Shown: positions 6,745 to 10,709 of the stretch, piece by piece
How the letters are laid out: every line of letters starts with the position of its first letter
Position numbering within the stretch: position 1 is the stretch's first letter
NCBI GenBank assembly: GCA_001938485.1
Contig: MQRK01246316.1
Location: 1-57,628 of the forward strand
DNA from: Girardia tigrina
Lineage: Eukaryota
DNA length: 57,628 bases
Direction of reading: 5' to 3'
The notes under the pieces: model-generated
Database searches by the model: none
The model's input: only the letters and a program-made list of their open reading frames with translations
What the model was told of the DNA's origin: nothing
Made by a program: the position numbers and the translations under genes

Positions 6745-7549
6745 TTATAATTTTTACCATTATACTCTAAGTTTTCTAACATTTAATTATGTAATATTTT
6801 TTTTATTTATAATTGTTTTTTTTCATTTGTTTCTCCTGGAGGCATGAAGAATCGATAGTGTTTTAAATCTCCAGTTTCATTTAGGCTTCTAAAGTATTTC
6901 TTCCATAATTTACCAATATATGGTTCAACTAAAGCCATATCACATAACCAACATTTAATGATATTATTATCTTGTATTTGAGCTTGTTCATTATATCTTT
7001 CTTCTGTTTCTCTGTATACTGGTTCTTGTGGTGTTGGTATATCTTCTACTGGTCCTATACCGGTATCTGCAATACCTATGTTATCAGTATTATTTTGGGT
7101 ATAGATAGTATCTGATTAGATAGTATTTGATTAGTATGGTCAGGTACCCATAATCTTTTGTCTCCTAGCCTTTTTAATATACCTGCTATTTTATTTCTCA
7201 TGTCTGCTGCAATGACTGTCTCGTGTTGTTTCACTCTACTGCCATCAAATGTTTCATATCTATCGAACCAGTCTTCGCAATTAATTGGTTTTTTGACGTA
7301 TCTGTGGTCTTTATATCCCCATCCATATAAGACATCTCTAACCCATTGACCAATTTCTATTGATTGGCTATCAGATCCATTTTAACATAGGAACCATGAT
7401 ACTAAGCCAACCGTCTTCGTCATTATATTTGTGAATATTATTTTGTAAATCTCTGATGGGGTTTTTTGAATATGATAGATAATTGTTTGATTCTTCCCAT
7501 AATATTTTTCTACTTTCTCGTAAATAATTTCCAACATTACCCATGAATA
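6745..7549 (-). pseudogene. Unknown ORF2 of virus-like element, distal part (decayed)
   Basis: Long minus-strand reading stretches (MGNVGNYLRESRKILWEE..; GQWVRDVLYGWGYKDHRY..; IKCWLCDMALVEPYIGKLWKKYF..) broken by frameshifts and stops; joins 9980+ in frame when 7550-9979 and one TSD copy are removed. Confidence 0.6.
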
Positions 7550-9979
7550 TGTTAAGACACGGGGTAAAGGAGAATTACTTTCCCTTACTTGGTTATTGTG
7601 CTTAACAAAGGAAGATGAACAATCTTCAATTTATTTATTAGTTCTCTTACAAAATTCGCTTAAATTTAATCTGAAATTTAAAAAAATTCTCTGAAATTTA
7701 ATCTCTTTTAATTTAAAATCTTACAATACCAAATGATCAATAATTATTAGCAATTATTATTATATATCGAAAATGCAAAACAACCAATTTTTATATAAAA
7801 TGTATTGATAATATAAACAATATTTTACAACTCAATTTAAGAGAAACAAATAATACAAATATCCTTTTTGTAATGTATAATTAGATCACTTCGAAATCAC
7901 CGTTTCGAAGCGTCTATCAATTTGATAATATGTGTTTTGGTTCGTGGTTTTAAAAACATGTAAACATATCTTGGGAACTGAGTCGTTCGGCTTTGAACCC
8001 CCAGGTTATCGGTAACCAACCATAAAACACTATCATACTAGTATAGCCTCTGCATGTATATTTTAATTCCTACTCTCTCAATATCTATGACCACAACTTG
8101 CCTCTCACCCAGCATACCATCTGCACGCAGTGATAAGTGATGAGGACCTTCCAGGTTCCAGATCTACACAAGTTTAAGACCAGGTAGACCAGATCAGCCC
8201 TAATGGGTATGATGTGATGTTAGATTAAAATGATTTTCATTAATGTAATAACCCCATGATGTATTGTGTTGACCCCAGTCACTGTATGTTATATTTTCAT
8301 ATGTTGAACCCCCTTAGCAGGTATGATAGCTATGACAACATTTCATCTTTTATTATTTTAATCATTATAAAATTATTTACAAAAGTATGGGCTCGAATAC
8401 CCTGACGCAAATCTTCCATTCATGTGTATGATTTTGGTGTCAAGATAAAGAGTTATAGAAGAAGAAAGAAATGCTAACAAAATTTTAACTAATCAGTGCA
8501 TGCTATATTTTATAAAAAACACATCAACAACTCATATAAACCCCTTAAAAATTTTATTTTGAAAAACATTTTACAACATTATCTATGCTCTTGCGGAGCC
8601 TTTGTCGCTTTCGTCTATTTACATAGTCCTCTCCTCGATAATCCGCGATACACCATTGAGTCCCTAAGGTGCGCGACTCTTTCCCTTCGTCGGCCCTTAA
8701 CTTTTCTCTCATGCGGATCTGCAACTGCTCAGAGTATAATCGCTCGAGCTCTCGTATGCGACTCTCCATTGTTACACCTCGTCTCACTACACGAGCGTAT
8801 TCATCAGGCTCTATAGAAGCTTCCTTCGATACTCTCAACTTCAGTGATAAGCGCTCCACGCTATCTCGCAGATTCAATATCTCTTGGCGATCTGTCGCCC
8901 TGGCTTTCTTTAATAATCGGTCCTCTTGTTGTAATTTCTCAATTGTTCGCTTAGCTTCCCGTAATTCTATCTCTTGTATCATCTAAAATTATAACAGTTA
9001 TGATATGAGTTGTTGACCTATTATTCTACGTGAGCGGTCATGAAAGATAGCAGTCGGATTCCGAAACTGCCTTCCGGTATGAATTCTTGAGCTTTGCTGT
9101 CACTCAGAGAATTCATTAACCGGGGACTTATCCTGGCCGCGCTAAAACGCATGCCGGAACCAGCCTTCAAGAATTTATATTTAACTGAAATGATTTTAAA
9201 TGTTGCCCTACCCGAGGGTATTCGAGCTGAAATAAATTAGCATATCAAAAGTAAACAAAATTATTGTAAAATATTTGTAATTGCATATAAAATAAAATGA
9301 TTTAACATAATAAAAACATAATTAACTAGATGATAGGGTGACCGACCGCTGCGTGAATATAAAATTTAAATAATCGGGACCCGAGAGAGAGAGTAGTGCA
9401 TTACTTTCTCTCTCGGACGCGAAAATTTTATCGTTATTTTTAAACAAAAATGTTACATATGAAAGAATTTAAACTTTTATCGATTATGTTGTTGAACTCT
9501 TCTTAATATATATAAAGTTTTATGCGTGGCCAAGTAGTACAACCGTGACAAAAAAAACACGTGCGTGAGAGCAAGAAAATAAAACGCGTGCTTAAGAAGG
9601 TAAAACGCGTGGTTCACATGAGAAGAATGAACGGCAAACGCGGCCGCCGCGAGTAGGGACGCACTATGCGTGACAGAAACGCATAGTGCATAACGAAAGA
9701 TCTCACAAATAATATAAAATAATTTTTAAATTTAAATATAAATAATACATATAATTTTAAATTTATTTTGATTAAAATTATAAATAATAAATAAGAATTA
9801 TAAATAATATCCTCGTATTATTTAATGCGACGGATAAAAATAACAAAGCATCAAAAATAAAATAAACAATAATAATTAATGTCAAGATAAAATAAATTTA
9901 TTTACATTCTCCACCAAAATAAACAAAACAATTAAATAAACAATAATTAATAAAATGATTTTATTTACATTCCCCAACA
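7550..9979 (+). mobile_element. Large (2430 bp) solo-LTR-like insertion
   Basis: TGTT...AACA termini, AATA duplicated at 7546-7549 and 9980-9983; removal restores an ORF; 3' end is homologous to that of 20510-21526. Confidence 0.85.
8554..8982 (-). CDS. Coiled-coil, charged ORF/exon inside the LTR-like insertion
   Basis: 142-aa open frame rich in E/R/K/L, immediately preceded by a TTTTAG acceptor; further AG/GT-bounded segments upstream at ~9018-9184 and ~9212-9226. No family recognised. Confidence 0.45.
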   Translation of the reverse strand: MIQEIELREAKRTIEKLQQEDRLLKKARATDRQEILNLRDSVERLSLKLRVSKEASIEPDEYARVVRRGVTMESRIRELERLYSEQLQIRMREKLRADEGKESRTLGTQWCIADYRGEDYVNRRKRQRLRKSIDNVVKCFSK

Positions 9980-10709
9980 AATAGGTCAAATTCATCTTGG
10001 TCATAAATAACACTTAGAAGTTGTGGTACTACATTTTCAATTGTGTAATGGTCATGTAATCTTTTGAAAAATTCTTCAATATGGTTATAATTTTTACCAT
10101 TATACTCTAAGTTTTCTAACATGTAATTATGTAATATTTGTATTTTTTTCATTAAGTCATTCATGTAATTTATGTTTTATTATTCTTATGTTATCCACTA
10201 TTGACATGATAATTGTTAGGAATGTTGAAATGTACACCAAACCACCTCCTACTGATATTAATCTTGGTGGTCTGAAACTGAGTAAATTGAATGTTCTGTT
10301 AAATTTAAAATGTTATTATATTCCTGAACTGAAGATTAGGATGTATTATAGATATATTTCTAATTCTTGGTAACATGTATTTATTTTTAATTCTATTAGC
10401 AAATTGTCTGAATCTAAATCTTTTAATTGGTTTTGTTGGTTTTAACGGTGGATCACTTGAACTGGAAATCTAAATGTTGAATTTTTTCTAAATTTATTCA
10501 TATTTTCCTGATCTTGTGTCATACGCATTGCGTTTAAATCCACTGGATGTTCAGATTTTATTAACGGCTTCCATGGCTTATTTCTTATTAATGATACATT
10601 TGGTCCATACATGGGCTTTTTAAATTGATTGAATTGCCTTCTAGTATTTGATGTTTCAGGTTTATTTGGTGTTGGTTTTTTGTCCTTTAGTTTCGTATAA
10701 AAAATTCAT
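9980..10709 (-). pseudogene. Unknown ORF2 of virus-like element, proximal part (decayed)
   Basis: An ATG at 10709 overlaps the Rep 3' end; a basic/Pro-rich stretch (KPTPNKPETSNTRRQFNQFKKP) follows a 1-nt shift in an A-run; includes most of ORF 9961-10164, whose last codons derive from the LTR end. Confidence 0.5.

What the first reader, a model, noticed from the sequence alone, without database searches (positions are those of the whole stretch)
6745..10709. Large unknown ORF2 downstream of Rep, reconstructed by excising an LTR insertion
Seen: deleting 7550-9979 plus one AATA copy gives ...GAT GAA TTT GAC CTA TTC ATG GGT AAT GTT... (DEFDLFMGNVGNYL), fusing two coding-like blocks into ~1.5 kb on the same strand as Rep, with an ATG overlapping the Rep 3' end. 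I recognise no family. Inference: Rep + ORF2 form one >=2.4-kb compact unit; ORF2 could be a capsid or other accessory protein of a new Rep-encoding element.
Basis: partly seen in the sequence, partly recalled or inferred. Interest (0 to 1): 0.8.

Follow-up and report, generated by a model that had tools for sequence, protein, structure and literature searches.

The report
Decayed planarian virus-like element insertion
This is most likely a broken, genome-integrated relative of a little-studied virus-like DNA element of freshwater flatworms (PEVE): a replication gene sits next to a mystery gene that a later insertion cut in two, and that gene does not look like an ordinary virus coat protein.

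Summary
The insert is real: 7550-9979 has TG…CA ends and AATA on both sides. Both flanks carry minus-strand coding signal (z 3.2, 4.2), downstream of a decayed HUH+SF3 Rep with two intron-like stretches. 'ORF2' is not one 1.5-kb frame: it changes frame or stops at five or more further places. It is also not unknown. Its 3' part (7067-6819) is 42% identical to P0003, a 678-aa protein 50% identical to ORF2L of the planarian element PEVE. The P0003 C-terminal region that includes most of that match hits PEVE type 2 ORF5L. PEVE's large segment encodes a Rep, and an integrated form (PIVE) is known from Schmidtea, so the Rep-ORF2 adjacency is probably inherited. The upstream 380 codons match PEVE ORF2L only in architecture, and known members score no better against each other. 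A low-confidence model of P0003 is helical with no strands, which argues against a jelly-roll capsid. Unproven: Rep orthology to PEVE, the LTR label, the host, and one gene versus two. Verdict: new, divergent member of an obscure known kind; interest 0.42.

The parts
10687..11611 (-). Decayed Rep gene (HUH endonuclease + SF3 helicase), 5' end cut off at a (TA)n tract; several stops and frame changes
   Evidence: Pfam Viral_Rep E=0.044, below cut-off; best PDB hit 7kii 'ATP-dependent helicase Rep' E=0.043; five motifs in order at 11530, 11092, 10982, 10812, 10743, 0 of 20 shuffled windows, patterns written after seeing the sequence; coding z 2.4
11232..11272 (-). Intron-like stretch 1 in Rep, 41 nt, GT…AG, 10% GC
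   Evidence: Lowest-GC of 18 GT..YAG candidates in the Rep block; its length fits the change between the two motif-bearing frames; splicing inferred, no RNA data
10891..10934 (-). Intron-like stretch 2 in Rep, 44 nt, GT…AG, 14% GC, between Walker B and motif C
   Evidence: same reasoning, inferred
9980..10709 (-). ORF2 5' block: basic, Pro-rich start, one hydrophobic stretch, then a helical-looking acidic piece; three frame changes
   Evidence: Coding z 3.2; charge and hydropathy; similarity to PEVE ORF2L not significant
10196..10252 (-). Hydrophobic 19-residue stretch (mean Kyte-Doolittle 1.97), counterpart of the single peak (1.45-1.53) in the three ORF2L-family proteins
   Evidence: correspondence by architecture only
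7550..9979 (.). Later insertion, 2430 nt, TG…CA ends, 4-nt target duplication AATA at 7546-7549 and 9980-9983; probably a long solo LTR
   Evidence: the neighbouring Gypsy LTR also starts TGTTA, after its polypurine tract, at 16070; no second copy
8557..8982 (-). 142-codon charged open frame inside the insert, no family
7079..7549 (-). ORF2 middle block, coding-like, no detectable homolog
   Evidence: none among 65 candidates; not significant against ORF2L
6819..7067 (-). PEVE ORF5L-like module (acidic linker, first CxxC at 6953, helix)
   Evidence: 35 of 81 identical to P0003 547-627, 0 of 60 shuffles, tblastn E=2e-12; library-wide phmmer E=1.2e-8; direct match to PEVE type 1 ORF2L 536-579, 40%, pairwise E=1e-4; P0003 569-678 hits ORF5L at 56%, E=6.6e-6
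6741..6808 (.). 68-nt copy (94%) of 10081-10148 lying within the ORF5L-like module
   Evidence: the next CxxC lies 229 nt from the first, against 171 nt in P0003
6671..6739 (-). Possible tail of the module, with a CxxC at 6724/6715
   Evidence: alignment to P0003 not significant (53 of 60 shuffles as good)
11615..11764 (.). (TA)n tract and assembly gap that hide the Rep 5' end and the element's right boundary

Best explanation
The locus is a dead, chromosomally integrated piece of a PEVE/PIVE-type element (planarian Rep-encoding virus-like DNA), corresponding to its large segment: a Rep gene followed on the same strand by an ORF2L/ORF5L-like coding region. How it worked: (1) Rep nicked and unwound the element's DNA for rolling-circle-type copying (inferred from HUH+SF3 motifs and established CRESS biology), from a transcript spliced at two ~40-nt introns (inferred). 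(2) The downstream product was a non-jelly-roll accessory protein. My preferred reading, about 0.35 on its own, is that the long basic Pro-rich N-terminus binds the element's DNA, the single hydrophobic helix anchors it to or inserts it into a membrane, and the helical body and C-terminal two-CxxC zinc module organise the complex. That is a packaging or movement nucleoprotein rather than an icosahedral shell. (3) A copy entered the host chromosome and decayed. It was then interrupted by a retroelement that left a 2.4-kb solo-LTR-like insert and by a local 68-nt duplication. Shown: insert anatomy, coding signal, homology of the 3' module. Inferred: Rep orthology, splicing, protein function, order of events, planarian host.
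For: The only credible hit among 1.84 billion representatives is P0003 (P0001 and P0002 are tandem-repeat artefacts). P0003's only relatives among 6865 candidates are PEVE type 1 and type 2 ORF2L. Its C-terminal module is the sole BFVD match at E<=0.001, to PEVE type 2 ORF5L. The tail of the deposited type 1 ORF2L is compatible with the same module in a shifted frame at 28 of 30 positions, best shuffle 17. PEVE large-segment proteins and Schmidtea PIVE_3p are listed together in a Rep/helicase tree, and PIVE is an integrated form (PMC3198968). Shared architecture: basic, Pro-rich region, then one hydrophobic 19-mer, then a near-neutral region. The best weak placements of four separate pieces fall in colinear order on the ORF2L profile: 186-215, 288-293, 343-361, 381-393. 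Rep motifs are in order.
Against: The upstream ~380 codons are not significantly similar to any ORF2L: best 7-14 of 200 shuffles for type 2, none better for the others; hhalign probabilities are 0.1-0.4%. The control shows little power: type 2 ORF2L against its known relatives gives 10 and 13 of 200. The PEVE Rep sequence was never compared, and the Rep search found nothing among 40 candidates. No terminal inverted repeats other than (TA)n. No second, NS1/E1-like helicase in the pieces scanned. Both structure models are poor (pLDDT 40.7 and 44.7). The host was not identified.
Confidence: 0.75

Rival explanations
1. Same element, but 'ORF2' is two genes: an ORF2L-like gene (10709 to ~7080) and a separate ORF5L-like zinc-module gene (~7115 to ~6670). 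The frame change near 7080-7115 would then be a gene boundary or splice site, not decay.
For: In PEVE type 2 the module is a separate 165-aa ORF5L and ORF2L is 450 aa without it. In the deposited type 1 ORF2L most of the module is out of frame. The window changes frame just before the module.
Against: In P0003 the module is fused in frame. Type 1 ORF2L runs in frame into its first ~45 residues. The module's frame has no ATG between three upstream stops and the module.
Confidence: 0.3
2. ORF2 is the jelly-roll capsid of an endogenous CRESS DNA virus.
For: Position next to Rep, a basic N-terminal region, and a size within the range of large CRESS capsids (own knowledge).
Against: The homolog model has 12 helices and no strand of 3 or more residues (low confidence). 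No Pfam capsid family for the pieces or homologs. No capsid among PDB sequence hits at E<=10. No named capsid at E<=0.001 in BFVD. No stem-loop with a nonanucleotide above chance.
Confidence: 0.07
3. Accidental neighbours: the Rep relic with its 5' block and the ORF5L-like 3' block are separate old insertions brought together around the 2.4-kb insert.
For: No homolog aligns across the junction. Two frames are open after it. The window is a dense patchwork of repeats.
Against: The 4-nt duplication and TG…CA ends point to a clean insertion into continuous DNA. Both blocks are coding on the same strand. The 68-nt repeat is shared by both blocks. PEVE carries both gene types on entries named 'large segment' or with the suffix 'L'.
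Confidence: 0.1
4. The unit is a host-resident rolling-circle transposon (a PIVE-like repeat that moves by its own spliced Rep), not a one-off integration of an extrachromosomal element.
For: Host-style short GT…AG stretches in Rep; PIVE is annotated as a repeat in Repbase; a (TA)n flank.
Against: Single copy in the window; no defined ends or target duplication found for the whole unit; spliced Reps also occur in true CRESS viruses (recalled).
Confidence: 0.12

Closest known systems
[quoted passage not shown]
   Same: ORF5L-like module, linked through P0003 and directly to type 1 ORF2L 536-579; same broad ORF2L architecture; a Rep on the same segment
   Different: [quoted passage not shown] The ORF2 body is too divergent to align, and the 173-residue N-terminus shared by types 1 and 2 is not recognisable. 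No small-segment helicase seen. Whether PEVE Rep has introns was not checked.
[quoted passage not shown]
   Same: Integrated relative of PEVE with a Rep-like ORF (PIVE_3p)
   Different: Sequence not available here, so this locus may be a PIVE copy, a sister family or a more distant lineage; PIVE also has an NS1-like ORF (PIVE_1p), not found in this window
P0003 (unnamed 678-aa protein on a 4572-nt JGI contig)
   Same: Closest sequence: 42% over 83 residues
   Different: Intact, module fused in frame; similarity outside the module not significant; its contig was not examined
CRESS DNA viruses (Cressdnaviricota)
   Same: HUH+SF3 Rep motifs; best PDB hit is a Rep endonuclease domain
   Different: No evidence of a jelly-roll capsid or of a nonanucleotide stem-loop
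Replitrons and Helitrons (definitions recalled, no paper read)
   Same: Genomic HUH-encoding elements of eukaryotes
   Different: Replitrons lack a helicase and Helitrons use a Pif1-type SF1 helicase; SF3 motifs are present here

Membership tests
PEVE/PIVE-type element | Homolog of a large-segment non-Rep ORF (ORF5L module) | tested here: met
   the ORF5L link is transitive through P0003 because the ORF5L sequence itself could not be fetched
PEVE/PIVE-type element | Homology over the ORF2L body | tested here: inconclusive
   Not significant; known members score the same against each other
PEVE/PIVE-type element | Rep-like gene on the same segment | tested here: met
   Rep motifs directly upstream on the same strand; PEVE large-segment Rep listed
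PEVE/PIVE-type element | Rep orthologous to PEVE Rep / PIVE_3p | tested here: inconclusive
   Word-based search with one broken frame found nothing; PEVE Rep sequence not in hand
PEVE/PIVE-type element | Second, NS1/E1-like helicase (small segment, PIVE_1p) | tested here: inconclusive
   No such Pfam hit in 18 + 21 + 137 frames or pieces; decay and the gap at 11669 limit the test
PEVE/PIVE-type element | Terminal inverted repeats (figure legend) | tested here: inconclusive
   None besides (TA)n in 5200-11650, but the copy is truncated at one end at least
PEVE/PIVE-type element | Planarian host; extrachromosomal form | not testable with these tools
   The window is an AT-rich eukaryotic scaffold with a P-type ATPase gene, Gypsy and mariner relics; planarian is inferred from the homologs only
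CRESS DNA virus | HUH endonuclease + SF3 helicase Rep | tested here: met
   Motif level only; motif I missing, Walker A damaged
CRESS DNA virus | Single jelly-roll capsid gene | tested here: inconclusive
   Helical, strand-free but low-confidence models; no capsid hits
CRESS DNA virus | Nonanucleotide at the apex of a stem-loop origin | tested here: not met
   TAATATTAC count at chance level, 4 vs 2.5 expected; no significant apex hairpin at the four candidate sites folded
Solo LTR (insert) | TG…CA ends and 4-6 nt target duplication | tested here: met
Solo LTR (insert) | Same sequence found as paired LTRs around gag-pol elsewhere | not testable with these tools
   No second copy in the window; rest of genome not available
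Replitron (recalled definition) | HUH Rep without helicase | tested here: not met
   Walker B, motif C and arginine-finger motifs present
Helitron (recalled definition) | Rep fused to a Pif1-like SF1 helicase | tested here: not met
   SF3-type motifs within 0.8 kb of HUH motif II; no Pif1 family hit

The most novel reading that the evidence does not exclude
PEVE-like elements are a distinct class of animal Rep-encoding DNA replicons without a jelly-roll capsid, in effect nuclear plasmids or unusual viruses of flatworms. They use a spliced Rep and a membrane-anchored, helical, DNA-binding protein with a zinc module in place of a shell, and they have entered host chromosomes repeatedly. This locus would mark a deeply divergent lineage of that class.
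Probability: 0.2. Interest if true: 0.75.

Novelty: new member of a known kind. Interest (0 to 1): 0.42.

Why it matters
PEVE has been an orphan since 2002. Three library searches naming it returned one substantive paper, and its non-Rep proteins have no curated family. This locus and P0003 add divergent members. They show that the two-CxxC module is the conserved part of the accessory region, occurring fused, out of frame or as a separate ORF. They also give a probe for finding integrated copies in flatworm genomes. If the accessory protein is truly helical and no other ORF supplies a capsid, the group would be a Rep-encoding animal replicon that spreads without the standard CRESS shell. The locus itself is dead and adds no new mechanism on its own.

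Tried and rejected
Pfam on 18 whole frames: 0 families. Word search with 7079-7381: none of 65 candidates. Word search with a Rep frame: none of 40. P0001 and P0002 dropped as tandem-repeat artefacts, 2 of the 3 hits. ESM Atlas: no usable hit for P0003; only 0.81 leads for its module, below the reliable range. GTDB genomes: 52 pattern matches, none confirmed. Plasmid tblastn with two Rep pieces: no match, and E>=5 only. PDB sequence searches with helicase pieces: nothing; with the ORF2L profile: only weak coiled-coil-like hits, best E=0.027. Fold search of the module against 48,161 chains: best Z 2.8 on a poor model, uninformative. PHROGs: nothing better than E=0.01. Rfam: 0 in 5300-11668. The idea that the 68-nt duplication marks a Rep nick site: both copies begin near an AAATATTAC, but neither folds better than shuffles, so it is kept only as a curiosity. 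The primary PEVE paper (Rebrikov 2002, BMC Genomics 3:15) was not held, so gene order, introns and repeats of PEVE are unchecked. The contig of P0003 and the viral and metagenome contig collections stayed unchecked, so Rep-ORF2 linkage in a second intact copy is untested. A search on planarian solo LTRs gave nothing specific.
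Full report
Setting. The window is an AT-rich eukaryotic scaffold (GC 19-39% per kb) with five N gaps, exons of a P-type ATPase gene at 35.5-39.7 kb, a mariner relic inside it and a decayed Gypsy element at 12.4-16.1 kb. The host was not identified; a freshwater planarian is inferred only from the homologs below.

The observation. The insert at 7550-9979 is 2430 nt, starts TGTT, ends AACA and has AATA on both sides. Of 14,641 end pairs near the two boundaries, 187 show a 4-6 nt duplication and 2 also have TG…CA ends; only this one has a 4-nt terminal inverted repeat and is in register with flanking open frames. 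A codon model trained on 1295 codons from unrelated genes of the window scores both flanks as coding on the minus strand (z 3.2 and 4.2, 0 of 100 shuffles each), but not their plus strands nor the two tested parts of the insert; against 216 background tiles the 3' block ranks first and the 5' block eighth. The region is not a single 1.5-kb frame. Frames change near 10459, 10310, 10159 and 7080-7115, stops lie near 7384 and 6809, and the ATG at 10709 stops after 15 codons. The LTR label rests on the ends, the duplication and the similar TGTTA start of the neighbouring Gypsy LTR at 16070; there is no second copy. A 68-nt, 94% copy of 10081-10148 lies at 6741-6808.

Rep. The upstream gene is a decayed HUH+SF3 Rep. 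Database support is weak: Pfam Viral_Rep E=0.044, and a PDB Rep domain as top hit at E=0.043. HUH motif II, a damaged Walker A, Walker B, motif C and the arginine finger occur in order within 0.8 kb, once in the window and in 0 of 20 shuffled windows; the patterns were written after I had seen the sequence. Two AT-rich GT…AG stretches of 41 and 44 nt are the lowest-GC donors among 18 candidates, and their lengths fit the changes between the motif-bearing frames. I read them as introns, without RNA evidence. The 5' end is lost at a (TA)n tract and gap. No relative was found among 40 candidates in a word-based search with one broken frame, so orthology to any named Rep is untested.

What ORF2 is. 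An exhaustive phmmer search with one frame of the 3' block returned 3 proteins. Two are tandem-repeat artefacts. The third, P0003 (678 aa), aligns with 7067-6819 at 35 of 81 identities, 0 of 60 local shuffles, tblastn E=2e-12. [quoted passage not shown] Type 1 ORF2L matches the window directly over 45 residues (40%, pairwise E=1e-4). A model of P0003 569-678 has one BFVD match at E<=0.001, PEVE type 2 ORF5L (165 aa, 56%); on so poor a model this match rests largely on sequence. The deposited tail of type 1 ORF2L is compatible with the same module in a shifted frame at 28 of 30 positions (best of 200 shuffles 17). So a module with two CxxC pairs is the conserved piece of the family: fused in P0003, largely out of frame in the type 1 entry, separate in type 2. 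In the window the second CxxC candidate lies 229 nt from the first, against 171 nt in P0003, with the duplicated block between them; that tail alignment is not significant.

The upstream 380 codons do not align significantly with any ORF2L. This negative has little power: type 2 ORF2L against its known relatives, outside their shared N-terminus, scores at the same level (10 and 13 of 200 shuffles) as the window against type 2 (7-14 of 200). What is shared is architecture: a basic, Pro-rich start (net +37 to +45 in the homologs; +13 and +11 in the first two window pieces), one hydrophobic 19-mer, then a near-neutral region. Four weak placements fall in colinear order, which composition alone could partly explain. 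No homolog aligns across the insert junction, so the fusion is supported by insert anatomy and coding signal, not by homology.

Capsid question. The AlphaFold model of P0003 from four sequences has mean pLDDT 40.7, a disordered first 285 residues, 12 helices and no strand of three or more residues; the module model is similar (44.7). No capsid family or structure was matched, and no origin-like stem-loop was found. This disfavours a jelly-roll capsid without excluding it. I commit to a DNA-binding, membrane-associated packaging or movement protein with a zinc module at about 0.35; every step of that is inference from composition and predicted helices.

Literature. PMC3198968 (seen: passages, section 8 whole, a supplement search and part 13 of supplement 1) lists PEVE large-segment proteins and Schmidtea PIVE_3p together in a Rep/helicase tree. 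It places the small-segment protein and PIVE_1p with parvovirus-like sequences, says that PEVE has not been found integrated, and cites PIVE as an integrated element in Repbase. Its figure was not visible. That the suffix 'L' means large segment is my inference. PMC6186406 (two passages), bioRxiv 10.1101/551184 (one passage) and PMC9241645 (passages) only cite PEVE. The primary paper was not held. Searches showed no listing that describes ORF2L or ORF5L function; subscription papers, Repbase and bioRxiv supplements were outside view. Replitron and Helitron definitions are recalled.

Verdict. But the element belongs to a known, obscure kind, the gene is more broken than stated and may be two genes (0.3), and a jelly-roll capsid is unlikely (0.07). 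New member of a known kind; interest 0.42; the boldest reading, a class of capsid-less animal Rep replicons, has probability 0.2 and would merit 0.75.

Noticed in passing
window 9381-9416 and 9661-9689: Two hairpins inside the insert: a 16-bp stem with z -5.7 against shuffles, and 11-bp arms with a 7-nt loop seen in the sequence, not folded
   Followed up: partly
window 10139 and 6799 (minus strand): The near-exact part of the 68-nt duplication begins at AAATATTAC, resembling a CRESS nonanucleotide; no hairpin, may be chance
   Followed up: partly
window 6040-6520: TAC/ACT-rich low-complexity region with internal direct repeats, a loose inverted repeat (6289-6424, z -2.25) and TAATATTAC at 6352; could be the element's non-coding region or unrelated
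   Followed up: partly
window 11520-11614 (minus strand): Three short hairpins at the truncated Rep start, z -3.7
   Followed up: no
P0004 residues 583-612: The deposited PEVE type 1 ORF2L tail appears to be the ORF5L-like module read in another frame: sequencing error, dead variant or recoding
   Followed up: partly
window 46670-47245: Adjacent plus-strand fragments hitting Pfam SCAP_N (PF24006, E=6.7e-14) and SRAP (E=5.9e-12)
   Followed up: no
window 4084-4251: Thymidylate synthase-like fragment, E=8e-5
   Followed up: no
window 53167-53739: CID-domain fragment followed by an RFC lid-like fragment
   Followed up: no
window 41147-41507: Long near-perfect inverted repeat (95-nt arms, 4-nt loop) beside 15-nt tandem arrays; foldback-like element
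   Followed up: no
window 12400-16140: Decayed Gypsy pol with polypurine tract and LTR start at 16070; an LTR fragment recurs at 29136-29197
   Followed up: partly
window 35400-39800: P-type ATPase exons (P5-like by my reading) with a mariner transposase relic at 37668-38594 inside an intron
   Followed up: no
window 56493 onward: Degenerate TAACCC-like repeats next to an assembly gap
   Followed up: no
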